Shown here piece after piece: positions 1,401 through 12,421 of a DNA stretch of 64,000 nt. This DNA comes from a virus (lineage: Duplodnaviria; Caudoviricetes), in IMG/VR virus record IMGVR_UViG_3300020161_002395, positions 1-64,000 of that record. One strand, given 5' to 3'. The notes under the pieces are model-generated. The model was not told the origin of the DNA and made no database searches. It saw only the letters and a list, made by a program, of their open reading frames with translations. Within the stretch, counting starts at the first letter, position 1; the number at the start of each line of letters is the position of its first letter. A program made the position numbers and the translations under genes.

Positions 1401-1460
1401 AGGATACATTCAGCAACTTAATACATTTGACTGCTAATCAAAACCGTAAAACGTATCCTG
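1401..1460 (+). ncRNA. CAGCA-box element copy 1; cargo is a Ser(GCT) anticodon stem-loop
   Basis: aggatac-attCAGCAA...gtatcctg enclosing tttga-CTGCTAA-tcaaa. Confidence 0.8.
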
Positions 1461-1491
1461 TTTTAACTTAACTAAATTAAATTAAATTAAT

Positions 1492-1755
1492 ATGGAAGAA
1501 TTTTCAATAACAAAACATGAGTATGAAAAGTTTCAAGCTCACTTTACTTTTACACTTATAAAAATTCCAACATATAGATATGGACAAGCTTTTTTAAATT
1601 ACTTTTATCCTGATGCCGGTGAATACTTAATAAGTATTAGTAATTTAGGTACACCTCCTGGTGTACACGTTCCAAATTTAGACTCCATATTATGGAGTGA
1701 AAAATCATATCATAAAGCAAAAGATATGATTGAAGATCATATAGAAATAAAATAA
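1492..1755 (+). CDS. hypothetical protein
   Basis: 87-aa ORF between RNA elements. Confidence 0.6.
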   Translation: MEEFSITKHEYEKFQAHFTFTLIKIPTYRYGQAFLNYFYPDAGEYLISISNLGTPPGVHVPNLDSILWSEKSYHKAKDMIEDHIEIK

Positions 1756-1792
1756 AGAATATTCGAGGCTAGTCACCAGCGAATAGACCATT

Positions 1793-1908
1793 AGGTTAGT
1801 TTCAGCAAGTATTTTATTCTTCAGAAAAAGAAAGTTCTAGGTTCGAATCCTAGCACTAAAGTTGGTCGTTTTAGTGTAGTTTAATTGGGAAAACAAAATG
1901 CTAACCTG
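1793..1908 (+). ncRNA. CAGCA-box element copy 2; permuted tRNA-like cargo (GAA-containing loop, Phe-like)
   Basis: aggttag/ctaacct helix; T arm ctagGTTCGAATCctag, closed acceptor cactaaa/tttagtg, then D arm tagtttaattgggaaaac. Confidence 0.8.
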
Positions 1909-1921
1909 TAAAATGAACAAT

Positions 1922-1995
1922 TGGGATATGGTGTAGTGGTAACACAACTGGTTTTGATCCAGTCATCCATGGTTCGAATCCGTGTATCCCTGCCA
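1922..1995 (+). tRNA. tRNA-Gln(TTG)
   Basis: Acceptor tgggata/tatccct, anticodon loop ttTTGat, GCCA end. Confidence 0.92.
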
Positions 1996-2021
1996 ATTTT
2001 TAACTTTTATCGGAAAAGATA

Positions 2022-2432
2022 ATGCAAGTAATTGAAAAAGAAGTAAAACCTTACAACTTAATCGCTGAGTATCCTAGATACAATGGTACTGACCTTATTG
2101 AAGCGGTAAAAGTTTCAGTTAGCTCTTATAGAAACTATAAAGCTGATACATTAAGAAATACTCCTCATCACTTGAAATCATTTGTTGAGCAATATTTCAA
2201 TGATGCTGATAAACACTTTGAACGAGTATTGGATGTGGCAATACAAATTCCAAATTCATTCACTGCGGAAGTAACTGATTTCAATTCCATTAAATTGGTA
2301 CATAACGATGTTCATTACTTCTTGAACTTGCGAGTTGATCTTGATTCCAAATCAATCGCTGAGTCAGAATTCGTTTTATCATTGGTGAAACGAACACGTT
2401 TTATGGAATCTGAAAAAGCACGATTATCATAA
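2022..2432 (+). CDS. hypothetical protein
   Basis: 136-aa ORF with GGA RBS. Confidence 0.65.
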   Translation: MQVIEKEVKPYNLIAEYPRYNGTDLIEAVKVSVSSYRNYKADTLRNTPHHLKSFVEQYFNDADKHFERVLDVAIQIPNSFTAEVTDFNSIKLVHNDVHYFLNLRVDLDSKSIAESEFVLSLVKRTRFMESEKARLS

Positions 2433-2443
2433 TCGTTTAATTT

Positions 2444-2535
2444 AGGATGATTACAGCAATGTAACCCCGAAGCCGATTAGTTGGAATCTTAACTGGGTTC
2501 GAATCCCTGGGCTCCGCCAAATCTATATCATCCTG
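2444..2535 (+). ncRNA. CAGCA-box element copy 3; cargo resembles a tRNA 3' half ending in CCA
   Basis: aggatga/tcatcct helix, tACAGCAA; cargo has gggTTCGAATccc followed by gctccGCCA. Confidence 0.75.
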
Positions 2536-2558
2536 TATTTTTTAACTTAGGAGATAAA

Positions 2559-2819
2559 ATGAAACAATTAGTATTAATTGGACTATTAGCTTTATTGGCA
2601 ACTGGCTGTGCTTCAACATCATCAGTTGAACAACTACAACAACGTCTTGACACTGTGGAAGCTAATGAAAAGGTCACCAATGAAGAAATTCAAGTATTAA
2701 AACGTGCTTGTGATCAGATGCAAAAAACTGCAAAAGAGCAACACTTGAAATGCGTAGAACATTGCAAAACACTTGAATCTAAATTAGATCGTGTTTTCAA
2801 AAAATCACAGTTGAAATAA
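2559..2819 (+). CDS. Lpp/OprI-like coiled-coil lipoprotein
   Basis: Signal peptide with lipobox LATG-C, heptad coiled coil, C-terminal LDRVFKKS. Confidence 0.65.
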   Translation: MKQLVLIGLLALLATGCASTSSVEQLQQRLDTVEANEKVTNEEIQVLKRACDQMQKTAKEQHLKCVEHCKTLESKLDRVFKKSQLK

Positions 2820-2827
2820 ACAATTTT

Positions 2828-2941
2828 AGGATCCTTGCAGCATACAATTTTGCATTCCAAGCCGGAAACACAGGTTCGAATCCTGTACTCTTTCATAAAG
2901 AGTTCGTCTAGTGGTCTAGGACACTGAAAAAGCAGATCCTG
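2828..2941 (+). ncRNA. CAGCA-box element copy 4; permuted tRNA-Glu/Gly-like cargo
   Basis: aggatc/gatcct helix; cattccaa-gccgg-aaac, T arm acagGTTCGAATCctgt, acceptor hairpin actcttt/aaagagt, Glu-type D arm tcgtctagtggtctaggac. Confidence 0.82.
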
Positions 2942-2958
2942 CTAAATAAGAGAATATT

Positions 2959-3354
2959 ATGGCAAATAATGAACCAAAACAAGTAATTGTAGTTAGAAAA
3001 GACTTAAATATGCGTAAAGGAAAAATCGCCGCACAATCAGCACATGCATCAATTGGTGCAATTCTTAATTATAGTGGTGAAATTTATGAAGATAGTTTAA
3101 CTCTTAATGTCGAAAATCAAGCAGTAAGAGAATGGCTAAATGGCAGATTTACAAAGATTTGTGTATCGGTCGATAGTGAACAAGAATTACTTGACATTTA
3201 TCAACAAGCATTGGATAATGGTGTAAATGTTAAATTAATAAAAGATTCAGGATTAACTGAATTTGATGGGGTTCCAACTTATACTTGTTTAGCATTAGGT
3301 CCAGATTATCCAGAAAACATTGACCCAATTAGTGGTCATTTAAAATTGTTATAA
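2959..3354 (+). CDS. pth2: Peptidyl-tRNA hydrolase II (Pth2 family)
   Basis: KQVIVVRKDLNMRKGKIAAQSAHAS, KIC, IKDSGLTE...TCLALGP motifs. Confidence 0.92.
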   Translation: MANNEPKQVIVVRKDLNMRKGKIAAQSAHASIGAILNYSGEIYEDSLTLNVENQAVREWLNGRFTKICVSVDSEQELLDIYQQALDNGVNVKLIKDSGLTEFDGVPTYTCLALGPDYPENIDPISGHLKLL

Positions 3355-3359
3355 ACATT

Positions 3360-3434
3360 GCCCTTGTAGTTTAAAGGATAGAATACCTGGCTACGAACCA
3401 GATGATGGGGTTTCGAATACCTCCGAGGGTGCCA
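3360..3434 (+). tRNA. tRNA-Arg(ACG)
   Basis: Acceptor gcccttg/cgagggt, loop ctACGaa, GCCA end. Confidence 0.88.
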
Positions 3435-3443
3435 ATTTAATTA

Positions 3444-3516
3444 TCTGATATAGCTCAGTAGGTAGAGCACCACGCAAAGTGGGAGGTCATCGGTTCGAGT
3501 CCGATTATTAGCTCCA
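3444..3516 (+). pseudogene. tRNA-like RNA with intact D and T arms and CCA but a collapsed anticodon arm
   Basis: tagctcagtaggtagagc D arm, ccac-gcaaa-gtgg (4 bp + 5 nt), atcgGTTCGAGTCcgat, TCCA end. Confidence 0.65.
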
Positions 3517-3529
3517 ATATTTTAAAAAT

Positions 3530-3775
3530 ATGAAAGTTGTTAAACTAAAAAAATCACATCACTTATTTCAATACGGATATACAGTTGCATTAAGATTTAG
3601 TTCACCATATTCTCCTGGTGCACAAGCTTGTAAATCAGTTCTATGTGAATCTTATGGTATCGATTATACTAAATGGCATACATTTCGATCAGGAAAGAAT
3701 AGACCATATTGGATCGGATTGACAGATGAAAAATTAATGACTTTCCTATTGTTGAAAGTAGATCTAACAAAATAG
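3530..3775 (+). CDS. hypothetical protein
   Basis: 81-aa ORF between tRNAs. Confidence 0.6.
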   Translation: MKVVKLKKSHHLFQYGYTVALRFSSPYSPGAQACKSVLCESYGIDYTKWHTFRSGKNRPYWIGLTDEKLMTFLLLKVDLTK

Positions 3776-3781
3776 AATATT

Positions 3782-3857
3782 GCCCTGGTGACGGAATGGC
3801 ATACGTACTGGTCTTAGAAACCAGGTTTTGGGAGTTCAAGTCTCCCCCAGGGTACCA
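3782..3857 (+). tRNA. tRNA-Leu(TAG) with a short variable loop
   Basis: Acceptor gccctgg/ccagggt, ctggt-ctTAGaa-accag, 5-nt variable loop, ACCA end. Confidence 0.88.
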
Positions 3858-3863
3858 AATAAT

Positions 3864-3953
3864 GGAAGTGTGGGTGAGTGGCTATAAACCGCTGGTCTTG
3901 AAAACCAGTAATCCGTAACGGGATCGTGAGATCGAATCTCACCATTTCCGCCA
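3864..3953 (+). tRNA. tRNA-Ser(TGA)
   Basis: Acceptor ggaagtg/catttcc, loop ctTGAaa, long variable arm, GCCA end. Confidence 0.9.
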
Positions 3954-4083
3954 AATATAGGAGCCCTTCGTGGCGGACAAGCTCTTAACCTATTAAAATA
4001 AACAAGAGTGAGTTAGTTGACCAGATAACTTTCAACAGGAAGGCAGAGGTTTCATAGAGATTAAACTGCCCTGGCAATTTTTT

Positions 4084-4157
4084 AGCCCGGTGATGAAATG
4101 GTATCATGACGGTCTCCAAACCCGCTCTTGGGGGCTCAAATACCTCCCGCGCTGCCA
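4084..4157 (+). tRNA. tRNA-Trp(CCA), atypical T arm
   Basis: Loop ctCCAaa, GCCA end, T loop CTCAAAT, some stem mismatches. Confidence 0.72.
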
Positions 4158-4196
4158 AATTTAAGCACTATATTAGTGCAAACGATAAGTAGTTAT

Positions 4197-4637
4197 ATGC
4201 TAAAAGTTTATAACGACACTGATTTTACTACTTATATGGATTATGAAGAAATAACTAGACAACTAGATACAATTAGTGTATTATATGTCCAAGTTCCAAC
4301 CGATGAGAACATCATTGAACAGATTAAACACGATTATGATGTTCCGTACAATGATACCATTGTATTGAACAGTTTAACTGAAAATTATCAAGAATTACGT
4401 GAGAAATTCAATAAAGAGCATTATCATACCGATTATGAAATGCGGTTATTCACTCAGGGTAATGCTAGATTCTTTTTTAATTTTTCTGGTACAATATATG
4501 AACTAAAAGTTGGGACAAATGATTTAATCAGTGTTCCAGCTAATGTTAAACACTGGTTTGATGCCGGTGAACATCCAAATGTAGCTGCAATAAGATTTTT
4601 TACTGAAAGCAATGGATGGGAAGCAATTTATACTTGA
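4197..4637 (+). CDS. mtnD: Acireductone dioxygenase (ARD/cupin)-like
   Basis: KFNKEHYHTDYEMRLF...DLISVPANVKHWFDAG...AIRFF...GWEA; start moved to ATG 4197 because the ORF-track start overlaps tRNA-Trp. Confidence 0.82.
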   Translation: MLKVYNDTDFTTYMDYEEITRQLDTISVLYVQVPTDENIIEQIKHDYDVPYNDTIVLNSLTENYQELREKFNKEHYHTDYEMRLFTQGNARFFFNFSGTIYELKVGTNDLISVPANVKHWFDAGEHPNVAAIRFFTESNGWEAIYT

Positions 4638-4703
4638 CAAACAAAATTATTAGTGTATAATGTATACTAATTAACAAGCTCTTTAACAATTTTAAAAGTT
4701 TTT

Positions 4704-4825
4704 AGGATCCGTACAGCATACAATAATTGCATGTGGAGCCGTTGGTCGTTGGTTCAAATCCAACATCCCCGATAAACTAACGGGGATTAGCTCAGTCTGG
4801 TAGAGCAACGTAAAAAAGGATCCTG
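4704..4825 (+). ncRNA. CAGCA-box element copy 5; circularly permuted tRNA-Pro(TGG)
   Basis: aggatcc/ggatcct helix; 3' half (TGG-agccgtt-ggtc-gttgGTTCAAATCcaac-atccccg) precedes 5' half (cggggat-tagctcagtctggtagagc-aacg). Confidence 0.88.
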
Positions 4826-4884
4826 TTAAATTAATTATTGACAAATAATTAAACTAGTGTATTATACACTAAATAAAGAATTAA

Positions 4885-4959
4885 CGCAGAGTATATCAGT
4901 GGTAGATTGTTGGGCTCATAACCCAAAGGACGAGTGTTCGAATCACTCCTCTGCCTCCA
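4885..4959 (+). tRNA. tRNA-Met(CAT), initiator-type
   Basis: Mismatched first pair, ttggg-ctCATaa-cccaa with three G-C pairs, TCCA end. Confidence 0.85.
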
Positions 4960-4965
4960 AAATTT

Positions 4966-5100
4966 AGAATGCTTACAGCAACTATATTTTATTAATAAGA
5001 AACCGTTATCTTTGATTTGTAGGTTCAAGTCCTACCTTAAAACCAGGTTTTAAGTGGCGAAACTGGTAAACGCGATGGTAAAAAAATAAAATGCATTCTG
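4966..5100 (+). ncRNA. CAGCA-box element copy 6; permuted tRNA-Leu(TAA)-like cargo
   Basis: agaatgc/gcattct helix; aaTAAga, long variable region, gtagGTTCAAGTCctac, acceptor cttaaaa/ttttaag, Leu-type D arm tggcgaaactggtaaacgc. Confidence 0.82.
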
Positions 5101-5113
5101 ATAAAGAATTAAT

Positions 5114-5197
5114 GCGACTGTGGTGGAACGGTTTACACAGTGGGCTTAAAACCCATACTCTTCGGAGTTGCCAGTTCGAATCTGGCCAGTCGTACCA
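5114..5197 (+). tRNA. tRNA-Leu(TAA)
   Basis: Acceptor gcgactg/cagtcgt, loop ctTAAaa, variable arm actcttcggagt, ACCA end. Confidence 0.92.
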
Positions 5198-5207
5198 AAT
5201 AAAATAT

Positions 5208-5297
5208 GAAGATGTGGCCGAGATAGGACTATGGCACTTTCCTGCTAAGAAAGCATACCGCAAGGTATCACTGGTTCGAATCCAGTCATCTTCGCCA
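5208..5297 (+). tRNA. tRNA-Ser(GCT)
   Basis: Acceptor gaagatg/catcttc, ctttc-ctGCTaa-gaaag, long variable arm, GCCA end. Confidence 0.9.
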
Positions 5298-5314
5298 AAT
5301 TTAAGGGTAATTAA

Positions 5315-5593
5315 ATGATTAGTGGTGAACATAAAGGTATTAAGTATACCATTACAGAAGAAGCTTGTGATGATCTGCTTAAATTTCACGGTATTAATGC
5401 CATTGATGAATTTAAACGTGGAATTGAATTGGAATTGGAACAACTTCAATCAACAGTAATAATTGAAAATGATATTGCTACACTTCATATTACTAAAAAA
5501 ATAAATTTAGGATCTTTACAGCAACACTTTTTGGATTATAACAACACAAAATTGTTAGGTGGTTCAAATCCACCAAAAACCAAGATCCTGTAA
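5315..5593 (+). CDS. hypothetical protein; 3' end reads through element copy 7
   Basis: ORF with RBS; last ~28 codons overlap an RNA element. Confidence 0.5.
   Translation: MISGEHKGIKYTITEEACDDLLKFHGINAIDEFKRGIELELEQLQSTVIIENDIATLHITKKINLGSLQQHFLDYNNTKLLGGSNPPKTKIL
5509..5590 (+). ncRNA. CAGCA-box element copy 7; cargo is a hairpin plus a T arm
   Basis: aggatct/agatcct helix; taacaa/ttgtta hairpin then ggtgGTTCAAATCcacc. Confidence 0.78.
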
Positions 5594-5599
5594 AGTTTT

Positions 5600-5656
5600 A
5601 GGATGCATTCAGCAATTTTAAAAAACAAACTTGAAATTTGAAAAAAACGCATCCTG
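5600..5656 (+). ncRNA. CAGCA-box element copy 8; cargo is a Ser(TGA) anticodon stem-loop
   Basis: aggatgc/gcatcct helix enclosing caaa-CTTGAAA-tttg. Confidence 0.8.
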
Positions 5657-5801
5657 TTAGAATAGAAATATAAATAAACACATAGTTTACAATAAAATGC
5701 GGTGCGAGATTTAGACATTGTATATCAATGTTTTGAATGATCGGTATCTTGGTACAACTCACTCTTGATACTAAACTATCTATTAATTAAGTGTTATATG
5801 C

Positions 5802-5887
5802 TCCACCCTACTCTAATGGTAAGAGGACTGACTGTTAATCAGTTGTAATCGGGAAACCGTATGCGTGTTCGAGTAGCGCGGGTGGAG
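5802..5887 (+). tRNA. tRNA-Asn(GTT) with a long variable arm, no encoded CCA
   Basis: Acceptor tccaccc/gggtgga, actga-ctGTTaa-tcagt, 19-nt variable region containing cgg-gaaa-ccg. Confidence 0.8.
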
Positions 5888-6000
5888 CATATAGCATTTA
5901 GTGCTGTATTGACAATTCAAATAACTAATGATATAATTGTATTTTTTCGGGCCACAGCGAATTACGATAATGAGAATTATTGACTGTGGCAATCAATTTT

Positions 6001-6075
6001 GGGGAATAAGTGTTGTAGGTGGCACACAAGATTTGCATTCTTGAAGGAGCGATTCGATTTCGCTATTCTCCACCA
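6001..6075 (+). tRNA. tRNA-Ala(TGC)
   Basis: G3:U70 pair, caaga-ttTGCat-tcttg, ACCA end. Confidence 0.88.
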
Positions 6076-6104
6076 AAATTTTAACACACTGACTAGACGG
6101 TACT

Positions 6105-6284
6105 ATGTTTGAGAATTTAGAAGAACCAACTGAATTTGATTATGAATTGATTAAAATCATATATCGATTGATGACATTAGAAGAAAGAACGGAATTTTCG
6201 AACAAGATTAAAGAATCATTTAGTCAAAATGATTTAATTGCAACAAAAGAATTAGCCAAAACTATATTGGCAACAAAAATGTAA
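6105..6284 (+). CDS. small hypothetical protein (59 aa, not in ORF track)
   Basis: MFENLEEPTEFDYELIK... open frame in line with downstream genes. Confidence 0.5.
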   Translation: MFENLEEPTEFDYELIKIIYRLMTLEERTEFSNKIKESFSQNDLIATKELAKTILATKM

Positions 6285-6295
6285 AGGATTATACG

Positions 6296-6484
6296 ATGGC
6301 AGGATGGCATGGTGGTAAAGGATCTAAATCAAGACCAGTAAACAGACAGAAATTTGCTGATAATTGGGATGCGATCTTTGGAAAGAAACCAGAAGTTAAA
6401 GAAGAAGTAAGTGATACAACAACTGAAGAAGCAGTTGAAATTATCAAAGAATATAAAAAAACACTTGACAACGATAATAAATAA
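6296..6484 (+). CDS. small hypothetical protein
   Basis: AAGGA RBS; MAGWHGGKGSKSRP...WDAIFGKK. Confidence 0.6.
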   Translation: MAGWHGGKGSKSRPVNRQKFADNWDAIFGKKPEVKEEVSDTTTEEAVEIIKEYKKTLDNDNK

Positions 6485-6504
6485 TAGTATAATAAGGACA
6501 TCAA

Positions 6505-6684
6505 ATGGCAACTATTAGTAAAGCAAACAGAAAAGCTAACCCTAATCAAACTAAAAATGGTAAGGTTAGAATTGGTAATTTTAGTTTAGCTAAATTGCAA
6601 GAACTAGTTGAAAAAACTAGTAGACCACGTGATAAACGTAAATATCAAAATCGTATTAACATTCTTATTAAAAGAGGTGCCTAA
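6505..6684 (+). CDS. small basic protein (59 aa, not in ORF track)
   Basis: AAGGA RBS; MATISKANRKANPNQTKNGKVRIG...; K/R-rich. Confidence 0.55.
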   Translation: MATISKANRKANPNQTKNGKVRIGNFSLAKLQELVEKTSRPRDKRKYQNRINILIKRGA

Positions 6685-6824
6685 TGGCCGTAGAAGTAAA
6701 GAAATGCAATTGTAATCACGAATTTCAAGACAAAACATACGGTAAAGGTATGCGAGTTATGAATCTCGATTTTAAGAAAACTAATGCCACTTGTACAGTA
6801 TGTGGTACTAAACACAAAGTTTAA
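6684..6824 (+). CDS. small Cys-rich, putative Zn-binding protein (46 aa)
   Basis: GAGG RBS; MAVEVKKCNCNHEFQDKTYGKGMRVMN...CTVCG. Confidence 0.55.
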   Translation: MAVEVKKCNCNHEFQDKTYGKGMRVMNLDFKKTNATCTVCGTKHKV

Positions 6825-6858
6825 AGAATAAGTCCTTCTAATGGAAGGACTACTAAAT

Positions 6859-6941
6859 GCTGAGTTCCTATAGCGGCGATTAGAGCGGTCTTGTAAGCCG
6901 TTGGTTAATACCCACCGTGGGTTCGAGTCCCACACTCAGCT
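6859..6941 (+). tRNA. tRNA-Thr(TGT) with a long variable arm, no encoded CCA
   Basis: Acceptor gctgagt/actcagc, loop ctTGTaa, ~15-nt variable region, gtggGTTCGAGTCccac. Confidence 0.75.
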
Positions 6942-6997
6942 TACCCAATTAATTTAAGAATAGTTTTCCAAGTTAATTGATGTAATATAAACAATTT

Positions 6998-7052
6998 AGG
7001 ATACATTCAGCAAGTAAAAAACTTTCAATTGGTGAAAACAAAACGTATCCTG
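6998..7052 (+). ncRNA. CAGCA-box element copy 9
   Basis: aggatac/gtatcct helix; cargo hairpin tttca-attgg-tgaaa. Confidence 0.8.
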
Positions 7053-7068
7053 TTAATAGGAAAACATA

Positions 7069-7677
7069 ATGAAAGTAGATGAAATAGTCTCATATCCAAG
7101 TAGAGATGGTAATGTTTGGAAATTTCAACATCATTTTAATGGTGTAAAGTTAGTGCCAGCATTTTCTAATTTAAATTATGCATTGGTTAATAGCCACGGT
7201 ACCGAATACTATGGATTATTTGATGAAAACACTCAATTGGTTAGTATTTTGGAATTAGATGAACGTGATACCCCATATTGGCAAATTTCATACACTGAAA
7301 CAGTTTCAACTTATCGTCGTCAAGGTTGTTTTAGATATTTATTGCTTAAAGCAGTGGAAAAACATACTACAATATTAAGTGATGAACATCAAACGAAAGA
7401 ATCTGAACATGCTTGGAAATCTTTGATACAATATCCAAGTGAACGATTACAATTTAAGATGTATAATACTAAAACTGGTGATATTGAAGATGTAGAACAA
7501 CAAATAGTATGGGATGATACTAGTGTTTATGTTATGTTAGTTACAAATTCACACTTTACTGAAAGTATGAAACACCTTTCTGAAATTAGAGATAGTTATA
7601 CTATCAAAAATAACAGACATTTTGATGGATTATGGTTTGGTCCAGAATCTAGTAATGAAAATTACGAAAATCCTTGA
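7069..7677 (+). CDS. putative GNAT-fold acetyltransferase
   Basis: Motif-A-like ISYTETVSTYRRQGCFRYLL; SDEHQT...AWKSL. Confidence 0.55.
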   Translation: MKVDEIVSYPSRDGNVWKFQHHFNGVKLVPAFSNLNYALVNSHGTEYYGLFDENTQLVSILELDERDTPYWQISYTETVSTYRRQGCFRYLLLKAVEKHTTILSDEHQTKESEHAWKSLIQYPSERLQFKMYNTKTGDIEDVEQQIVWDDTSVYVMLVTNSHFTESMKHLSEIRDSYTIKNNRHFDGLWFGPESSNENYENP

Positions 7678-7711
7678 CATCATAAGATATTTTTAGTATA
7701 ATAAGATTTTT

Positions 7712-7766
7712 AGGATACATTCAGCAAGTAAAAAACTTTCAATTGGTGAAAACAAAACGTATCCTG
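7712..7766 (+). ncRNA. CAGCA-box element copy 10 (identical to copy 9)
   Basis: Exact repeat of 6998-7052; own promoter TTGACA 7674 / TATAAT 7697. Confidence 0.8.
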
Positions 7767-7789
7767 TTAAATTTTATAAAGCACTTTGA

Positions 7790-7875
7790 GCGGGTGTAGC
7801 TCAGTATGGTTAGAGCGCGGTCCTTCCAAGTCCGAGGCGAATAGTTTTACGCAGGTTCAAATCCTGTCACCCGCT
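7790..7875 (+). tRNA. tRNA-Gly(TCC) with an enlarged variable region, no CCA
   Basis: Acceptor gcgggtg/cacccgc, loop ctTCCaa, 16-nt variable region; flanks pair (aaagcactttga/tcaaagtgcttt). Confidence 0.75.
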
Positions 7876-7887
7876 CAAAGTGCTTTG

Positions 7888-8640
7888 TTATTTTGATAAC
7901 AGTTCTTTCACTAGATCTAATTTTGATTTATTTTGGTATTCTTTATGCGAAATACGTAATATTTCAACATTGTAGTGAGACATAATGTAAGCATCACGGT
8001 CGATATCATAATCGATAGTTTTCAAGTGTTGGGTACCATCTAATTCTATAATTAGTGCTAGATCGGGGAAATAAAAATCACCAAAATACGTTTTTACTAT
8101 ATCATAGCGTCTAAAAGGTTGTTCAGTTATGTAATTTATACTTGGATAATTTTCATTAAGCCACTTTTCAAATGAAAGTTCCATATATGACCTTTTATTC
8201 CTACCTCGATTTGATTTTGGATTAAAGGTATTATTTGCAATACTATTTTTAATTCTAATTGAAAGGTATTTACGATTACAAGCATCAGAACATGTATTAC
8301 TATTTTTAGGATGAAATTTATTGCAAATTTTACATTGTTTAATTTTTGTAAATGCTGGTCCGTATTGTTTATAATTTAATTTAGCAATAGATATTTTGGC
8401 AGCCTCTACTTGTTTCACAGTCGGTTTCCATCCATCAGCAATGCGTTTTTTATTGTTATATTTTGCAGAACATGATTGATTACAAAATTTGTTATTTGAA
8501 TAAATTGGTTCTTGACATTCTAAACAATATGATTTTGGATCTTTTACAGAATGATATTTTTTATAATGACTTTTTATGTTTTGAGTAGTTAATGGTTCTT
8601 TACAAGAAATGCAAGAACAGTACAAATGAAATTTAGACAT
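7888..8640 (-). CDS. Free-standing endonuclease, Vsr/DUF559-like with Zn-finger repeats
   Basis: C-terminal DFYFPDLALIIELDGTQH...DRDAY...ILRI; N-terminal CxxC, FCNQSC and TCSDAC repeats. Confidence 0.75.
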   Translation of the reverse strand: MSKFHLYCSCISCKEPLTTQNIKSHYKKYHSVKDPKSYCLECQEPIYSNNKFCNQSCSAKYNNKKRIADGWKPTVKQVEAAKISIAKLNYKQYGPAFTKIKQCKICNKFHPKNSNTCSDACNRKYLSIRIKNSIANNTFNPKSNRGRNKRSYMELSFEKWLNENYPSINYITEQPFRRYDIVKTYFGDFYFPDLALIIELDGTQHLKTIDYDIDRDAYIMSHYNVEILRISHKEYQNKSKLDLVKELLSK

Positions 8641-8795
8641 TTAATTTCTCCAGATATAAATAAAAGTATGGGACAGCCTAGTTCTCCAGACTGGGTTTTG
8701 AAATACTCGTAATATTTCAATTACCATAACTATTTATCAAAAAGTTATTGACACAATTTTAATTTTTTGTTATAATTACATAAATTAAAAGTTTT

Positions 8796-8850
8796 AGGCT
8801 CAATTCAGCATACATCATCTTACCATTATAAAGAAACCAAGATGAGCCTG
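8796..8850 (+). ncRNA. CAGCA-box element copy 11
   Basis: aggctca/tgagcct helix (compensatory changes), attCAGCAT; promoter upstream. Confidence 0.78.
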
Positions 8851-8979
8851 TTTTAATGATTGACAACTACAATACTATAAAGTATAATACAACAAATAAC
8901 TGGTGCTATTACAACTAATAATTACTATATCGATCATAGATCCGAGTTACATAGATAGTACCAGTTATAAACGAATAAT

Positions 8980-9052
8980 TGCGGGGTATATCAGTGGTAG
9001 ATAGCTGGGCTCATAACCCAGAGGTCGTTGGTTCGATTCCAACCCTCCGCTT
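8980..9052 (+). tRNA. tRNA-Met(CAT), second initiator-type copy, no intact CCA
   Basis: ctggg-ctCATaa-cccag, gttgGTTCGATTCcaac. Confidence 0.8.
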
Positions 9053-9093
9053 CCCTTCGGAATACTGAATAAATCAGTATTCCAAAATGTTTT

Positions 9094-9196
9094 AGGGTCA
9101 CTACAGCAATCAATGTTTAAGCCAAGCTGGAGGAACGGTTCGATTCCGTCTAGAAGTATACCGGTTGTATGCCAGCAATAACAAATGATGACCCTG
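9094..9196 (+). ncRNA. CAGCA-box element copy 12; permuted tRNA-Gly(GCC)-like cargo without an acceptor stem
   Basis: agggtca/tgaccct helix; aaGCCaa-gctgg, acgGTTCGATTCcgt, D-like agtataccggttgtat, ccagc pairing with gctgg. Confidence 0.8.
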
Positions 9197-9209
9197 TTTT
9201 AATAATTTT

Positions 9210-9320
9210 AGGATACATTCAGCAAGTTGATACACCCTGGAGGTCGTAGGTTCGAGTCCTACATTCTCTTAAGAGGATTAGCTCAGTTGGGAGAGCGCCT
9301 GGCTAAAAACACGTATCCTG
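9210..9320 (+). ncRNA. CAGCA-box element copy 13; permuted tRNA-Val(TAC)-like cargo
   Basis: aggatac/gtatcct helix; gaTACac, aggtc, gtagGTTCGAGTCctac, acceptor attctct/agaggat, D arm tagctcagttgggagagc. Confidence 0.85.
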
Positions 9321-9340
9321 TTTTAATTCAAAAGGAATAT

Positions 9341-9613
9341 ATGACACAAGTAACAGCAAGACATATTTTAGTAGGAACTTTGGAAGAAGCACAATCATTG
9401 GCAACACAAATCAATGAAGGTGCAGATTTTGGTGCATTGGCACAACAGCATTCAAAATGCCCAAGTGGAAAGAATGGTGGTAATTTAGGTCCATTTGGTC
9501 GTGGACAAATGGTTAAACCATTTGAGGATGTATCATTTGGACTGGATGTTGGTGGATTTAGCGAACCAGTTCAAACACAATTTGGCTATCATTTAATCAA
9601 CAGAACTGCATAA
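9341..9613 (+). CDS. ppiC: Parvulin-type peptidyl-prolyl isomerase
   Basis: ARHILV, FGALAQQHSKCPS, GGNLGPFGRGQMVKPFE, TQFGYHLI; AAGGA RBS before ATG 9341. Confidence 0.93.
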   Translation: MTQVTARHILVGTLEEAQSLATQINEGADFGALAQQHSKCPSGKNGGNLGPFGRGQMVKPFEDVSFGLDVGGFSEPVQTQFGYHLINRTA

Positions 9614-9617
9614 GTTT

Positions 9618-9905
9618 ATGAAGACACAAGTTTTAGATGATCGAGTTGTAGTTAAAAAGAAAGACGTTGCTAAAACCAATTCATTTGGTATAGTTATCCC
9701 AGAAGACAAAACTGTAAAAACTTCAGAAGGTGAAGTAATTGCAGTTGGTGAAGGTAAGCAACTTGATAATGGTGTCATTCGAGAGATGACTGTTAAAGTT
9801 GGTGACACAGTACTATTTCCAAAAGGTGCTGGGGTTGAAGTAAAAATTGAAGATATTGAATGTGTAGTTTTACGTGAAACTGAAATATTCGGTATCTTAG
9901 AGTAA
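9618..9905 (+). CDS. groES: GroES co-chaperonin
   Basis: LDDRVVVK...GIVIP...GEVIAVGEG...VKVGDTVLF...LRETEIFG. Confidence 0.92.
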   Translation: MKTQVLDDRVVVKKKDVAKTNSFGIVIPEDKTVKTSEGEVIAVGEGKQLDNGVIREMTVKVGDTVLFPKGAGVEVKIEDIECVVLRETEIFGILE

Positions 9906-9917
9906 AGATTTAATTAT

Positions 9918-9996
9918 GCTCCAATACCAAAGTGGCTTAATGGGACTGATTGCAAATCAGTAAAAATCGGCGGTTCGAATCCGTCTTGGAGCTCCA
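9918..9996 (+). tRNA. tRNA-Cys(GCA)
   Basis: Acceptor gctccaa/ttggagc, loop ttGCAaa, TCCA end. Confidence 0.9.
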
Positions 9997-10038
9997 GCTG
10001 TAAAATACATTGTCAACTCGGTGTATTAGTAAAAAAAT

Positions 10039-10131
10039 GGAATAGCTACAGCAAAAAGTTCGCGGTTAATACCCGCTCCGGAAAGACTTCTTTTGCTATT
10101 AGAAGAAAAACAAATGGCAATCCCTATTCCG
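10039..10131 (+). ncRNA. CAGCA-box element copy 14
   Basis: ggaatag/ctattcc-g helix, ctACAGCAA; multi-hairpin non-tRNA cargo. Confidence 0.72.
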
Positions 10132-10140
10132 AACTATTTT

Positions 10141-10247
10141 AGGCTAGATACAGCAATCCAAATATTATAATGGATGGACTGGCGAACATACTGCTGGTCG
10201 AACTGGAAGGAAAGAGCCAGTATAAACCTTCAACAAACACTAGCCTG
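10141..10247 (+). ncRNA. CAGCA-box element copy 15
   Basis: aggctag/ctagcct-g helix, atACAGCAA. Confidence 0.75.
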
Positions 10248-10257
10248 TTACCTTTTT

Positions 10258-10462
10258 AGGATGTTTACCGCATAATAAACCTATAACTGCTGCCACTAAT
10301 CTTGTATTGAGTGGCTATTACTGGAATAATTAACCAGAGTAGCTTCTAACGCGAAAGTTAGATATTGCTAATAAGAATTATTAGATAGGGTTATGGATTA
10401 ACTCCCCCAAGTGGGTAGATGATAACCAGAAGAAAATAAAATACATCCTTCCGAACATCCTG
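10258..10462 (+). ncRNA. CAGCA-box element copy 16 (longest; variant box CCGCAT)
   Basis: aggatgtt/aacatcct-g helix; ~180-nt cargo with several hairpins. Confidence 0.65.
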
Positions 10463-10486
10463 TTTTAAACTTTTAATTGGTACTAA

Positions 10487-10678
10487 ATGAAACCCATTAA
10501 GCTAACAATAGATCAAAATTATACCTTAATAAGCAATTCCCATGCACTTGGGTATACAAGTTCATATGCATACATAGATAGTGTTTTTAAAGGCAAAAAG
10601 CACATTACACCAGACGGTGAGTATGAAATAATCTTTCAAAATGATGTTGATGCAACCTGGTTTTTATTAAATTTATGA
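10487..10678 (+). CDS. hypothetical protein with C-terminal DATWFLL motif
   Basis: ORF; C-terminal motif shared with neighbours. Confidence 0.6.
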   Translation: MKPIKLTIDQNYTLISNSHALGYTSSYAYIDSVFKGKKHITPDGEYEIIFQNDVDATWFLLNL

Positions 10679-10905
10679 CATTTAAAGTAGAATTACATCC
10701 TGAGTATGATTATTGTCCACAATGGTGGAAGCAATTATGCTCACATTATAATCATTTGAAATCTGATGTCGCAACTGACAATGCAATTCGTTCATATATT
10801 ACTGCAAATGGTGGAACAATTCAATTAGATGAAGATGGTGATTGTATAGAATATATAGAATTCCCATCAGAAGCACACTTTACTTGGTTTTTATTAAAAA
10901 TATAA
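10675..10905 (+). CDS. hypothetical protein with C-terminal FTWFLLK motif
   Basis: ATGA-overlapped ORF. Confidence 0.6.
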   Translation: MTFKVELHPEYDYCPQWWKQLCSHYNHLKSDVATDNAIRSYITANGGTIQLDEDGDCIEYIEFPSEAHFTWFLLKI

Positions 10906-10950
10906 AAATCATTTGACAAACAAAATAAATCTGCTATAATACACACTTAT

Positions 10951-10986
10951 AGTTTAGTAAACAGCAAACAAAAACACACTAACCTG
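10951..10986 (+). promoter_or_regulatory. Minimal cargo-less CAGCA-box element (copy 17) in the 5' leader of the TROVE/vWA gene
   Basis: agtttagt-aaACAGCAA-acaaaaacac-actaacct-g between the promoter (TTGACA 10913 / TATAAT 10935) and RBS AGGAG at 10991. Confidence 0.7.
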
Positions 10987-11002
10987 ACATAGGAGATACA
11001 CA

Positions 11003-12421
11003 ATGACTACATTCGTAGAAGCAGTAGAAAATCAAGAATCTCATACCGCTAATGGTATGAAAGCACTTAAATCAACCACTAATAAAGCAGTAGACTTTTT
11101 CTACAATGTCGGCGCAAGCCGTGGTAAAGACATTATTCCTGCTTTTACATCAGCATATGTTGAAGATAAAGATCTAGCAATGCGTATTGCATTATGGGCA
11201 CGAGATGCTCGTGGTGGTTCCGGTGAACGTAAATTGTTCCGAGATATTTTAGCTCATTTAGAAACAGTTGACATCGATGCTGCAAAAGCATTGTTATCAA
11301 AGGTCCCAGAATTGGGTCGTTGGGACGATATTTTCGTTTTCAAAACTCAAGAAATGAAAACCGAAGCTTTCACAATGTTGAAAAATGCATTGACTGATGG
11401 TAATGGTTTAGCAGCTAAATGGACACCACGTAAAGGTGATGTAGCAGTTGAATTCCGTAAGTTTTTAGGTTGGAGCCCAAAGCAATACCGCAAAACATTG
11501 GTTTCTTTGACTAACGTTGTTGAAACGCAAATGTGTGCAAATGATTGGGATAACATCAACTTTAACCATGTGCCATCATTGGCAAGTGCTCGATACAAAA
11601 AAGCATTCAACCGCCATACTCCAAAGTTTGCAGAATATGTTGCAAAACTAATCGCCGGTGATAAGTCTGTTAGTGTTGCAGCTGGTGCAGTTTTCCCTTA
11701 TGATGTACTAAAAGGTGTTGGTAGTTACGGTTTTGATAGAACTGAAAAAAATCACATCATCGCCCAATGGGATGCGTTACCAAATTTTGTTGGCGATGCT
11801 AATATCTTACCATTGGTCGATGTTAGTGGTTCTATGAGTTGTAAAGCAGGTGGTCATAACTCTAAAACTGATTTAACCTGTATGGATGTTGCAGTATCAC
11901 TAGGTTTATACTTGGCTGATAAAAACACTGGTAAGTTTAAAGATACCTTTATTACCTTCAGTGAACGTCCAGAGTTGTTAACTCTACGCGGTAACGTGGT
12001 AGAAAAAGCAACTCAAATGGTTAAATCTGCATGGGGTATGAGTACTAACTTACACGCTGCATTTGATTTAATTTTAGATGTAGCAACCAAGTTTGATGTA
12101 CCACAAGCTGAAATACCAGAAATGCTCCTTATACTTTCCGATATGCAGTTCAGTCCATCAACTATCAGAGGAATTGATGAAACAGCAATGGAAATGATAA
12201 CACGTAAATATGAAGCAGCTGGGTATACAATTCCACAAATTGTGTTCTGGAACATCAATGCTGCTGACAACGTACCAGTTAAATCTGACAAGTCAGGTGC
12301 GGCGATGGTTTCTGGATTCAGTCCAGCTATTGTTAAAGCATTATTATCAGCTGATATGAGCGACTTCACCCCTGAAGGCATCATGTTAAAAACTGTAATG
12401 GTTGACCGATACGCTGTTTAA
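11003..12421 (+). CDS. TROVE/Ro60-like protein with C-terminal vWA domain (DUF2828-like)
   Basis: TANGM, RDARGGSGER, GRWDD, LAAKWTPR, VPSLA motifs; MIDAS DVSGS...STN...ILSDMQF, IVFWN, VSGFS. Confidence 0.8.
   Translation: MTTFVEAVENQESHTANGMKALKSTTNKAVDFFYNVGASRGKDIIPAFTSAYVEDKDLAMRIALWARDARGGSGERKLFRDILAHLETVDIDAAKALLSKVPELGRWDDIFVFKTQEMKTEAFTMLKNALTDGNGLAAKWTPRKGDVAVEFRKFLGWSPKQYRKTLVSLTNVVETQMCANDWDNINFNHVPSLASARYKKAFNRHTPKFAEYVAKLIAGDKSVSVAAGAVFPYDVLKGVGSYGFDRTEKNHIIAQWDALPNFVGDANILPLVDVSGSMSCKAGGHNSKTDLTCMDVAVSLGLYLADKNTGKFKDTFITFSERPELLTLRGNVVEKATQMVKSAWGMSTNLHAAFDLILDVATKFDVPQAEIPEMLLILSDMQFSPSTIRGIDETAMEMITRKYEAAGYTIPQIVFWNINAADNVPVKSDKSGAAMVSGFSPAIVKALLSADMSDFTPEGIMLKTVMVDRYAV

What the first reader, a model, noticed from the sequence alone, without database searches (positions are those of the whole stretch)
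1401..12421. Candidate new system: 17 modular 'CAGCA-box' RNAs with swappable tRNA-mimic cargo beside a Ro60/TROVE-like protein
Seen in sequence: 17 copies (starts 1401, 1793, 2444, 2828, 4704, 4966, 5509, 5600, 6998, 7712, 8796, 9094, 9210, 10039, 10141, 10258, 10951) of one scaffold. It is usually preceded by a T run, then has a 6-8 bp helix, 2-3 nt, CAGCA(A/T), variable cargo, an A-rich linker, the helix 3' strand and G. The helix covaries: aggatac/gtatcct, aggttag/ctaacct, aggatga/tcatcct, agaatgc/gcattct, aggctca/tgagcct, agggtca/tgaccct, ggaatag/ctattcc, aggctag/ctagcct. This indicates selection on structure. All copies are on + and several follow sigma70 promoters. The array ends at a TROVE-like/vWA gene. 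Established: bacterial Ro60 (Rsr) binds Y RNAs through a terminal helix, and YrlA-type Y RNAs carry a tRNA-like domain with a closed acceptor stem. Inference: the phage encodes a Ro-like protein plus a library of Y-like RNAs that each display a different tRNA mimic. Possible roles are decoys for host anticodon nucleases or tRNA-sensing defences, or adaptors for RNA-processing enzymes.
Basis: partly seen in the sequence, partly recalled or inferred. Interest (0 to 1): 0.95.

Follow-up and report, generated by a model that had tools for sequence, protein, structure and literature searches.

The report
Phage Ro60-like protein with partner RNAs
A large freshwater phage carries at least 16 small RNA genes among its tRNA genes; they share one conserved "handle" but carry different inner parts, often pieces of tRNA, and they are most likely the partner RNAs of the neighbouring ring-shaped Ro60-like protein, a pairing that recurs in very different phages and that I found in neither Rfam nor the papers searched.

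Summary
Sixteen solid copies and one weak copy of one RNA scaffold lie on the + strand between 1401 and 10986. The scaffold is a 7-bp covarying stem that closes the RNA, then 3 nt, unpaired CAGCA(A/U), a variable inner part, an A-rich stretch, the 3' stem strand and G. The gene at 11003-12421 (Pfam DUF2828 + DUF7788) has a confident predicted fold whose 12 best PDB matches (E up to 1e-5) are all Ro60/TROVE.

A covariance model of the scaffold hit 12 of 13 DUF2828 phage genomes, beside the gene in 11, and none of 8 control phages (1.23 Mb). Five copies carry a T-arm, closed acceptor stem and D-arm in YrlA order, and two hit Rfam YrlA below threshold. Three carry partial tRNA parts, two an anticodon-like loop, and seven no tRNA feature. 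"Each displays a tRNA mimic" is therefore overstated.

The handle lacks the CGAA motif of known Y RNAs. It matches the architecture of Dictyostelium Class I RNAs, again below threshold. Binding and function are inferred, not shown.

This scan has found the same system before on other DNA (311 notes, at least 214 genomes). This window holds the largest array among the loci I counted here.

The parts
1401..1460 (+). Handle RNA 1, short (60 nt). Stem AGGAUAC/GUAUCCU. The inner hairpin has a 7-nt loop CUGCUAA (anticodon-loop-like).
   Evidence: (R1 56.1 bits). It follows the perfect promoter at 1353-1380. The orthologue in L009 at 62-123 has the same loop.
1793..1908 (+). Handle RNA 2 (116 nt) with a YrlA-type body: T-arm, acceptor stem closed by a loop, D-arm.
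   Evidence: (27.5 bits). tRNA-Gln starts 13 nt downstream.
2444..2535 (+). Handle RNA 3 (92 nt) with an imperfect T-arm followed by an unpaired GCUCCGCCA tail.
   Evidence: 24.1 bits. The tail and T-loop are conserved in L008 432-523.
2828..2941 (+). Handle RNA 4 (114 nt) with a YrlA-type body. The stem has one mismatch at its innermost pair.
   Evidence: The orthologue in L008 at 835-948 has a perfect stem.
4704..4825 (+). Handle RNA 5 (122 nt) with a YrlA-type body.
   Evidence: Rfam YrlA RF02553 scores 48.9 bits against a gathering score of 69, full model length. R1 scores 21.8 bits. A perfect promoter lies at 4634-4661.
4966..5100 (+). Handle RNA 6 (135 nt) with a YrlA-type body and a long variable region.
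   Evidence: (29.6 bits). It fits between tRNA-Met (6-nt gap) and tRNA-Leu (13-nt gap).
5509..5590 (+). Handle RNA 7 (82 nt) with a T-arm only.
   Evidence: (27.9 bits). Orthologues are aligned.
5600..5656 (+). Handle RNA 8, short (57 nt). The inner hairpin has a 7-nt loop CUUGAAA.
   Evidence: (51.1 bits). Rfam Dicty_Class_I_RNA scores 29.1 bits. Orthologues keep the hairpin but carry other loop triplets.
6998..7052 (+). Handle RNA 9, short (55 nt), with no tRNA feature.
   Evidence: 50.6 bits. Rfam Class I scores 28.4 bits.
7712..7766 (+). Handle RNA 10, an exact duplicate of RNA 9. It starts 10 nt after the -10 box of a perfect promoter.
   Evidence: 62-nt identical repeat at 6995-7056 and 7709-7770.
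8796..8850 (+). Handle RNA 11, short (55 nt), box CAGCAU.
   Evidence: 43.7 bits. A perfect promoter lies at 8748-8776.
9094..9196 (+). Handle RNA 12 (103 nt) with a T-arm plus one further hairpin and no D-arm.
   Evidence: R1 did not report it with default filters.
9210..9320 (+). Handle RNA 13 (111 nt) with a YrlA-type body.
   Evidence: Rfam YrlA scores 37.9 bits; the model's terminal helix aligns with the handle stem. R1 scores 24.9 bits.
10039..10131 (+). Handle RNA 14 (93 nt) with a divergent stem GGAAUAG/CUAUUCC and other structured inner parts.
   Evidence: 16.4 bits, E 0.54. The orthologue in L008 at 8998-9089 has the same stem.
10141..10247 (+). Handle RNA 15 (107 nt) whose inner part is three hairpins with no tRNA feature.
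   Evidence: 29.5 bits. The orthologue is L008 9099-9205.
10258..10462 (+). Handle RNA 16 (205 nt), box CCGCA, with a large multi-hairpin inner RNA.
   Evidence: Against the L009 orthologue (9406-9605, box CAGCA), 7 of 46 predicted pairs change on both sides and stay paired. No Rfam match.
10951..10986 (+). Minimal handle copy (36 nt; one stem mismatch, 4-nt spacer). It lies between the promoter and the ribosome-binding site of the Ro60-like gene.
   Evidence: A leader copy sits at the same place in L008 and L009 (R1 E 0.0099 in L009). In BUCT-ZZ01 and CPX a copy ends about 20 nt before the start codon, and in Va3 a weak copy (E 0.96) overlaps it.
11003..12421 (+). Ro60-like protein gene (472 aa). 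Pfam DUF2828 + DUF7788. C-terminal vWA domain with MIDAS residues D273, S275, S277, T348 and D380.
   Evidence: Pfam. (invariant residues). (pLDDT 90.6, pTM 0.90). (the 12 matches with E up to 1e-5 are all Ro60/TROVE, TM by query 0.38-0.61).
10913..10940 (+). Perfect sigma-70-type promoter of the Ro60-like gene. Four more perfect promoters precede copies at 1353-1380, 4634-4661, 7674-7702 and 8748-8776.
   Evidence: 12 of 12 consensus matches.
12654..13094 (+). Context: YqeY-like protein gene.
   Evidence: PF09424, E 2.9e-11. The same order is seen in L008 and L009.
15712..16614 (+). Context: T4 Rnl1-type RNA ligase gene.
   Evidence: PF09511, E 6.7e-11. Also present in L008.
2959..3354 (+). 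Context: peptidyl-tRNA hydrolase (PTH2) gene inside the island.
   Evidence: PF01981, E 3.6e-34.

Best explanation
The elements are genes for small non-coding RNAs that form a ribonucleoprotein with the phage's own Ro60-like (DUF2828/DUF7788) protein, as Y RNAs do with Ro60.

Each RNA is closed by a 7-bp stem that joins its two ends. The protein-binding handle is probably this stem together with the unpaired UUA-CAGCAA on the 5' side, the A-rich stretch on the 3' side and the terminal G(U). The inner part varies and would be the working end. It can be an anticodon-less tRNA body as in YrlA, a lone T-arm, an anticodon-like hairpin or another folded RNA. It would present tRNA-like surfaces to tRNA-handling enzymes or nucleases.

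The RNAs are transcribed from strong phage promoters, alone or together with tRNAs, and are probably released by the tRNA-processing machinery. The island also encodes tRNAs, a peptidyl-tRNA hydrolase, a YqeY protein and an Rnl1 RNA ligase. I therefore think the particle most likely acts in tRNA/RNA surveillance or in protecting the translation apparatus during infection.

Shown here: the RNA structure, the protein's predicted fold and the co-occurrence. Inferred: binding, and still more the function.
For: RNA is real and structured:
- 14 of 15 sites chosen by the 5' motif alone have a perfect complement plus G (P about 4e-32).
- In an alignment of 13 copies from four phages, all 91 stem cells pair, 6 of 7 pairs change on both sides, and sliding the partner drops pairing to 28-35%.
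- Orthologues in L008 and L009 show compensatory stem changes.

Protein is Ro60-like:
- The model has pLDDT 90.6 and pTM 0.90.
- Every PDB match with E up to 1e-5 (12) is a Ro60/TROVE structure, E 3e-8 to 1e-5.
- The DxSxS motif aligns with that of Ro60.

RNA travels with the gene:
- Model R1 hit 12 of 13 DUF2828 phage genomes at E up to 0.01.
- In 11 of them the hits lie on the gene's strand within about 10 kb, and in 8 every hit lies within 3.1 kb.
- Eight phages without DUF2828 (1.23 Mb) gave no hit (positive control).
- Counting only lineages not used to build R1: 8 of 9 against 0 of 8.

Y-RNA likeness:
- Five copies have T-arm, closed acceptor and D-arm in YrlA order.
- Rfam YrlA aligns over its full length at 48.9 and 37.9 bits, with its terminal helix on the handle stem.
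- A mix of long tRNA-like and short copies parallels Salmonella YrlA and YrlB (PMC4201824).

Context: YqeY and Rnl1 lie downstream and PTH2 inside the island. RtcB lies near the gene in Listeria phage P100plus.
Against: - No binding data exist.
- The sequence motif that Ro60/Rsr is thought to recognise (GNCGAA) is absent.
- The Rfam YrlA and Class I hits are below their gathering scores.
- The protein does not reach Pfam TROVE at E up to 0.1. It matches Ro60 by sequence profile only weakly (E 0.05). The fold match has TM 0.38-0.61 with rmsd about 7 A or more.
- In Serratia phage BF the RNA hits lie in the tRNA island about 200 kb from the gene.
- Enterococcus phage TJE2 gave no hit.
- The look-alike Class I RNAs of Dictyostelium are reported to bind an RRM protein, Rnp1A (PMC7919456), so a handle of this kind can have another partner.
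- The stem alignment was built from copies chosen for pairing, so its 100% pairing is partly by construction.
Confidence: 0.7

Rival explanations
1. The elements are cis-acting processing or stability modules of the polycistronic tRNA transcripts, for example entry or stop sites for host RNases. They would act independently of the DUF2828 protein.
For: They sit among tRNAs at the same tight spacing as neighbouring tRNAs, 6-13 nt. In Serratia phage BF they lie in the tRNA island, far from the gene.
Against: They occur beside the gene in phages with almost no tRNAs, Staphylococcus phage 6ec and mycobacteriophages Wilder and Calm. They are absent from tRNA-rich phages without DUF2828, T4, T5 and SPO1. 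Several have their own perfect promoter. An invariant unpaired CAGCA box plus varied, conserved inner folds is more than a cleavage site needs.
Confidence: 0.08
2. The tRNA-like copies are circularly permuted tRNA precursors. The phage RNA ligase would join them and RNase P and 3' processing would reopen them, giving working tRNAs.
For: The order T-arm, acceptor, D-arm is that of a tRNA opened in its anticodon arm. An Rnl1 ligase gene lies 3.3 kb downstream.
Against: No anticodon loop is present in the five full bodies; the handle takes its place. Twelve of 17 copies lack a full tRNA body. The handle is conserved in phage loci where the annotation shown lists no RNA ligase. The bodies are not close copies of the phage's own tRNAs.
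Confidence: 0.04
3. The copies are mainly regulatory operators or decoys that set the level of the Ro60-like protein. The protein would bind the leader copy to repress its own translation, and the other copies would titrate it.
For: A minimal handle lies between the promoter and the ribosome-binding site at 10951-10986. A copy lies directly before the start codon in L008, L009, BUCT-ZZ01, CPX and P100plus, and weakly in Va3.
Against: In LMP34, Wilder, Calm, 6ec and the Klebsiella phage all copies lie downstream of the gene. Sixteen copies with elaborate, conserved inner parts are not needed for titration. This reading still requires the protein to bind the handle, so it extends the main explanation more than it competes with it.
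Confidence: 0.1

Closest known systems
Bacterial and mycobacteriophage Ro60 (Rsr) with the Y RNAs YrlA and YrlB (Rfam RF02553; Chen et al. 2014, PMC4201824)
   Same: - A ring-plus-vWA protein gene lies on the same strand as several small RNA genes.
- A terminal stem closes each RNA.
- One class of RNA carries T-arm, closed acceptor stem and D-arm with no anticodon loop; another class is short.
- RNA-ligase genes lie nearby.
   Different: - The protein is DUF2828/DUF7788, not Pfam TROVE.
- The GNCGAA(N)G motif in the 5' stem strand is replaced by an unpaired CAGCAA box 3 nt after a stem of free sequence.
- Rfam YrlA scores are 48.9 and 37.9 bits against a gathering score of 69.
- There are 16-17 copies here. 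From memory of Chen et al. 2014, known cases have up to about four.
Dictyostelium Class I RNAs (Rfam RF01414; Kjellin et al. 2021, PMC7919456)
   Same: - A short stem joins the 5' and 3' ends, with covarying sequence.
- A conserved motif with the core UUACAGCAA lies directly after the 5' stem strand and is unpaired.
- The 3' part is A-rich.
- The ends are conserved: AAG...CUGU there, (U)AGG...CCUGU here.
- The short copies are about 55-60 nt.
- There are many paralogues per genome.
   Different: - Scores are 24-29 bits against a gathering score of 41.5.
- The stem is 7 bp here, not 6.
- These are phage genes with sigma-70 promoters, not DUSE promoters.
- Many copies carry long tRNA-like inner parts.
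[quoted passage not shown]
Thermus phage phiLo Ro60 with Yrl1 and Yrl2 (Hu et al. 2025, PMC12135203; PDB 9KOP, 9L5Y)
   Same: A phage-encoded Ro60-fold protein with phage-encoded partner RNAs next to its gene. It is the best structural match of the model here (E 3e-8, TM 0.58).
   Different: phiLo Ro60 is a TROVE-domain protein, and its two RNAs carry the CGAA motif. The protein here shares no detectable sequence similarity by phmmer, and the RNAs carry CAGCAA.
Circularly permuted tRNA genes (as in the red alga Cyanidioschyzon; from my own knowledge)
   Same: The 3' half of a tRNA body is encoded before the 5' half, and the acceptor stem is closed by a loop.
   Different: There is no anticodon loop and I saw no splicing-type junction motif. 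Most copies have no tRNA body at all.

Membership tests
YrlA-type Y RNA (Rfam RF02553) | Score at or above the Rfam gathering threshold (69 bits) | tested here: not met
   Best hits are 48.9 bits (4720-4844) and 37.9 bits (9210-9322). The other copies give no hit.
YrlA-type Y RNA (Rfam RF02553) | tRNA-like domain: T-arm, acceptor stem closed by a loop, D-arm, and no anticodon loop | tested here: met
   Met by 5 of 17 copies (1793, 2828, 4704, 4966, 9210). Three more have partial tRNA parts.
YrlA-type Y RNA (Rfam RF02553) | GNCGAA(N)G / CGAA motif near the 5' end, the presumed Ro60 contact (PMC4201824, PMC12135203) | tested here: not met
   The 5' stem strand varies freely. The invariant motif is CAGCA, 3 nt after the stem.
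YrlA-type Y RNA (Rfam RF02553) | Encoded near a Ro60 orthologue on the same strand (within 4 kb in Chen et al. 2014) | tested here: met
   All copies are on the gene's strand. Seven lie within 2 kb and the farthest 9.6 kb upstream. In other phages the copies mostly lie within 3.1 kb.
YrlA-type Y RNA (Rfam RF02553) | Bound by the Ro60 protein in vivo | not testable with these tools
   Needs pull-down or a gel-shift assay.
Dictyostelium Class I RNA (Rfam RF01414) | Score at or above the Rfam gathering threshold (41.5 bits) | tested here: not met
   Scores are 29.1, 28.4, 28.4 and 24.4 bits at 5601, 6999, 7713 and 1402.
Dictyostelium Class I RNA (Rfam RF01414) | Short stem joining the two ends, conserved in structure but not in sequence | tested here: met
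   7-bp stem with compensatory changes. The stem is 6 bp in Dictyostelium (PMC7919456).
Dictyostelium Class I RNA (Rfam RF01414) | Conserved, largely unpaired 11-nt motif next to the 5' stem strand | tested here: met
   The Rfam consensus CUUACAGCAA aligns with N-U-W-CAGCAA here. The complement of the box is not enriched in the inner parts (11 of 62 against 8.4 expected), so the box is not generally paired.
Dictyostelium Class I RNA (Rfam RF01414) | Length 42-65 nt; conserved ends AAG...CUGU | tested here: inconclusive
   Six copies are 36-60 nt and eleven are 82-205 nt. The ends read (U)AGG...CCUG(U), with U after the G in 13 of 16 copies. The true RNA ends are unknown.
Dictyostelium Class I RNA (Rfam RF01414) | DUSE promoter about 60 nt upstream; restricted to dictyostelids | tested here: not met
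   These are phage genes with sigma-70-type promoters.
Ro60 / TROVE protein | Match to Pfam TROVE, or clear sequence similarity to Ro60 | tested here: not met
   Only DUF2828 and DUF7788 were reported at E up to 0.1. phmmer against PDB gave no hit. The profile search gave Ro60 first, but at E 0.05.
Ro60 / TROVE protein | Fold: helical-repeat ring followed by a vWA domain | tested here: met
   The AlphaFold2 model has pLDDT 90.6. The 12 Foldseek matches with E up to 1e-5 are all Ro60/TROVE chains, aligned over the full length. This is a prediction, not a solved structure.
Ro60 / TROVE protein | MIDAS metal site in the vWA domain | tested here: met
   D273, S275, S277, T348 and D380 are invariant in 59 family members. 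The DxSxS stretch aligns with that of Xenopus Ro60.
Ro60 / TROVE protein | Binds Y RNA on the ring surface and misfolded RNA ends in the hole | not testable with these tools
   Needs biochemistry or a structure of the complex.

The most novel reading that the evidence does not exclude
The Ro60-like ring uses one common handle to load a library of at least 16 different RNA adaptors. These include anticodon-less tRNA bodies and anticodon-loop mimics whose 'anticodon' differs between related phages. The phage would use this library to intercept host tRNA-cleaving immunity nucleases, or to deliver damaged tRNAs to its Rnl1 ligase. In addition, the same handle defines the unexplained Class I RNAs of Dictyostelium, so both would belong to one ancient ribonucleoprotein family that spans viruses and eukaryotes.
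Probability: 0.12. Interest if true: 0.92.

Novelty: new variant of a known kind. Interest (0 to 1): 0.78.

Why it matters
DUF2828 is a very large family with no assigned function: 6124 clusters at 50% identity and 710 phage records. Giving it a Ro60 fold and a specific, easily recognised RNA partner makes it testable at the bench.

Well-studied phages such as the Felix O1 relatives and Listeria phage P100 would then carry an unannotated ribonucleoprotein inside their tRNA regions. At least one such RNA is already mis-annotated as a tRNA.

This window shows how far the system can expand, to 16-17 RNAs with different inner parts on one handle. That expansion is the best natural material for asking what the variable part does.

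The likeness to Dictyostelium Class I RNAs, which were reported as unique to social amoebae and have no known mechanism, offers a lead for that problem as well.

Tried and rejected
- phmmer of the protein against PDB: no hit.
- Rfam at gathering thresholds: only tRNAs. No Rfam family covers the Felix O1-type copies.
- Intrinsic terminators: rejected. The T run after the stem is specific to this phage group, and the terminator scan picks up only T-arms.
- CAGCA box paired with a downstream UGCU. This looked likely in 1401, 10258, Wilder and CPX, but there is no enrichment (11 of 62 against 8.4 expected, 204 of 1000 shuffles as high).
- tRNA-like bodies as recent copies of the phage's own tRNAs: rejected. 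Only the universal T- and D-loop bases match.
- Anticodon-loop mimicry as a general rule. Fifteen of 62 copies have a Y-U-NNN-R-N loop on a stem of at least 4 bp, against 4.1 in shuffles. Simple shuffles destroy all hairpins, so this shows hairpins, not mimicry.
- Whole-record searches of the two closest relatives (L008, L009): not possible.
- The supplement tables of Chen et al. 2014 and the 2020 Annual Review are not held.
- Whether a dictyostelid encodes a DUF2828 protein: I had no way to test this.

Full report
**Observation.**
- Fifteen copies have a perfect 7-nt stem. Exactly 3 nt separate the 5' strand from CAGCA (CCGCA at 10258), and the 3' strand lies 47-204 nt downstream and is followed by G.
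- The copy at 2828 has one mismatch at the innermost pair and ends at 2941.
- The copy at 10951 is weak: one mismatch, a 4-nt spacer, 36 nt.
- I also selected sites by the 5' motif alone. That gave 15 sites, all inside the region, and 14 of them have the perfect complement plus G. The genome background is 0.47%, so P is about 4e-32.
- Nothing with this signature occurs in the remaining 150 kb of the record.
- The record is an IMG/VR contig rated 45% complete, and the window starts at its end. The array could therefore continue upstream, and 17 is a lower bound.

**Anatomy of the handle.** I compared 16 copies here with 17 copies from seven other phage lineages. The shared parts are:
- a stem whose first positions read A-G-R and whose last read Y-C-U;
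- three mostly U/A nucleotides;
- invariant CAGCA, usually followed by A;
- four A-rich nucleotides just before the 3' strand;
- G and usually U after the stem.

G2, its partner C, the final G and CAGCA were selection criteria. The other conserved positions were not. The stem sequence is free. In a 13-copy alignment from four phages every cell pairs, 6 of 7 pairs change on both sides, and sliding the partner by one to three columns drops pairing to 28-35%. That alignment was chosen for pairing, so the 5'-motif test above is the cleaner one. The complement of the box is not enriched in the inner parts, so the box is probably single-stranded.

**Inner parts**.
- Five copies (1793, 2828, 4704, 4966, 9210) carry a T-arm, an acceptor stem closed by a loop and a D-arm. 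A short stem stands where the anticodon stem would be and runs into the handle.
- Three copies (2444, 5509, 9094) have a T-arm with little else.
- Two short copies (1401, 5600) have a hairpin with a 7-nt loop of anticodon-loop form (CUGCUAA, CUUGAAA). Orthologues of 5600 keep the hairpin but read UUCAUAA and CUGAUAA.
- Copies 6998 and 7712 (identical), 8796 and 10951 are plain.
- Copies 10039, 10141 and 10258 carry other folds. The 205-nt inner RNA of 10258 keeps 7 pairs through double changes against its L009 orthologue.
- The tRNA-like bodies are not copies of the phage's own tRNAs.

**Expression signals.** Nine perfect TTGACA-N16/17-TATAAT promoters lie on the + strand in 12.6 kb. Five stand directly before copies, two of them 10-11 nt before the stem. 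Other copies sit 6-13 nt from tRNAs, the same spacing as between adjacent tRNAs. This suggests joint transcription and release by tRNA processing. That is inference.

**The protein.**
- The gene at 11003-12421 matches Pfam DUF2828 and DUF7788 only.
- Its family is huge: 6124 clusters at 50% identity, and 710 phage records, some annotated "RNA-binding protein" or "Ro-like RNA binding protein".
- An AlphaFold2 model built on 59 sequences has pLDDT 90.6 and pTM 0.90.
- The 12 Foldseek PDB matches with E up to 1e-5 are all Ro60/TROVE structures, led by Thermus phage phiLo Ro60 (9KOP, E 3e-8) and Xenopus Ro (1YVR, TM 0.61). Ordinary vWA domains follow, starting at E 3e-3.
- Sequence evidence is weak: Ro60 comes first in the profile search, but at E 0.05.
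- The MIDAS residues are invariant in the family.

**Co-occurrence.** I built a covariance model (R1) from 13 short copies. It recovered longer copies it had not seen. Results of whole-genome searches:

| Phage | Hits at E up to 0.01 | Position relative to the DUF2828 gene |
|---|---|---|
| LMP34, Wilder, P100plus, CPX, 6ec | 12 in all | same strand, within 1.2 kb |
| BUCT-ZZ01 | 4 | within 9.3 kb upstream |
| Va3 | 1 | 6 kb upstream |
| Klebsiella phi1_175008, Calm | 3 and 2 | within 0.6 kb downstream |
| Bacillus vB_BcoS-136 | 3 | 0.4-3.1 kb upstream |
| Serratia BF | 3 | in its tRNA island, 200 kb from the gene |
| Enterococcus TJE2 | 0 | - |
| Eight phages without DUF2828 (T4, T5, SPO1, phiKZ, lambda, P1, N4, 201phi2-1; 1.23 Mb) | 0 | - |

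- The family search was validated on five positive phages.
- Counting only lineages not used to build R1, the result is 8 of 9 against 0 of 8.
- Phages 6ec, Wilder and Calm have almost no tRNAs, so the link is to the gene and not to tRNA clusters.
- Two close metagenomic relatives carry 14 and 15 copies in the same island, with compensatory stem changes between orthologues.

**Comparison with known families.**
- Chen et al. (PMC4201824) described YrlA and YrlB next to Ro60 in 254 bacteria and 22 phages, with a GNCGAA(N)G motif.
- Hu et al. (PMC12135203) showed that phiLo Ro60 binds two CGAA-bearing RNAs and host PNPase.
- The system here has the same layout, but a different protein family by sequence and a different handle. 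Rfam YrlA aligns over its full length at only 48.9 and 37.9 bits.
- The handle instead matches the Rfam consensus of Dictyostelium Class I RNAs: a stem joining the ends, CUUACAGCAA, an A-rich 3' part and a ...CUG end. The scores are sub-threshold, 24-29 bits.
- It also matches the features listed by Kjellin et al. (PMC7919456), who report those RNAs as unique to dictyostelids.
- I first dismissed these hits as noise.
- I found no paper that links DUF2828 to Ro60 or to these RNAs.

**Mechanism.** The best-supported reading is a Ro60/Y-RNA-type particle. The protein binds the common handle, and the variable inner part supplies specificity, often by looking like part of a tRNA. PTH2, YqeY and Rnl1 lie in or next to the island, and RtcB lies near the gene in P100plus. 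This points to tRNA/RNA surveillance or repair during infection. That step is inference from neighbourhood and from what is known of Rsr-YrlA-RtcB operons.

A minimal handle lies in the gene's own leader here and in several other lineages, which suggests feedback control. The rival readings (processing signals, permuted tRNA precursors, pure operators) fit fewer facts and are listed with their tests.

**Novelty.** Ro60 with Y RNAs is a known kind of system, including in phages. The DUF2828 branch with its CAGCAA handle is not in Rfam 15 and not in the papers I could search, so I rate it a new variant of a known kind.

This scan has met it many times before on other DNA (311 notes in at least 214 genomes). 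One later check there gave the observation 90/100 and its bold reading 6/100. Two things are particular to this window. It also has the widest range of inner parts.

Noticed in passing
window 6995-7056 and 7709-7770: A 62-nt perfect direct repeat, each copy holding a whole handle RNA, brackets ORF 7069-7677 (202 aa, no Pfam hit) and a perfect promoter. The relatives L008 and L009 have a single copy at this place, so this looks like a recent duplication or gene insertion.
   Followed up: partly
window 7790-7876, 5802-5888, 6859-6941: tRNA-Gly(UCC), tRNA-Asn(GUU) and tRNA-Thr(UGU) carry 13-, 16- and 11-nt insertions in the variable region. These isoacceptors normally have short variable loops (alignments).
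   Followed up: no
window 3444-3513 and 4084-4154: Two Rfam tRNA matches (43.6 and 33 bits) that ARAGORN did not call.
   Followed up: no
window 10258-10462; L009 9406-9605: The 205-nt inner RNA of this handle copy is a conserved multi-hairpin fold with 7 compensatory pairs between two phages and no Rfam match. Its identity is unknown.
   Followed up: partly
window 3954-4083, 5657-5801, 5889-6000, 8851-8980: These intergenic stretches in the island are assigned to no tRNA, ORF or handle RNA. Two of them hold perfect promoters (5909-5937, 8860-8888). They may encode further small RNAs.
   Followed up: no
window 7888-8640 (- strand) and 14286-15170: Likely homing-endonuclease genes inside the island (DUF559 with a treble-clef domain; NUMOD3).
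   Followed up: no
L003 5533-5655 (Mycobacterium phage Wilder): The annotated tRNA-Asn (5534-5604) is the 5' part of a handle RNA with a permuted tRNA body. Its stem partner lies at 5648-5654. Two more handle RNAs flank it.
   Followed up: partly
L024 (Serratia phage BF, record 301233-307296): Three handle-RNA hits lie in gaps of the tRNA island, about 200 kb from the phage's DUF2828 gene. RNA genes and protein gene can therefore be unlinked in a jumbo phage.
   Followed up: partly
L009 19363-20124: A close relative of this phage carries an AmoC/PmoC-family gene, which hints at a methane- or ammonia-oxidising host for this phage group.
   Followed up: no
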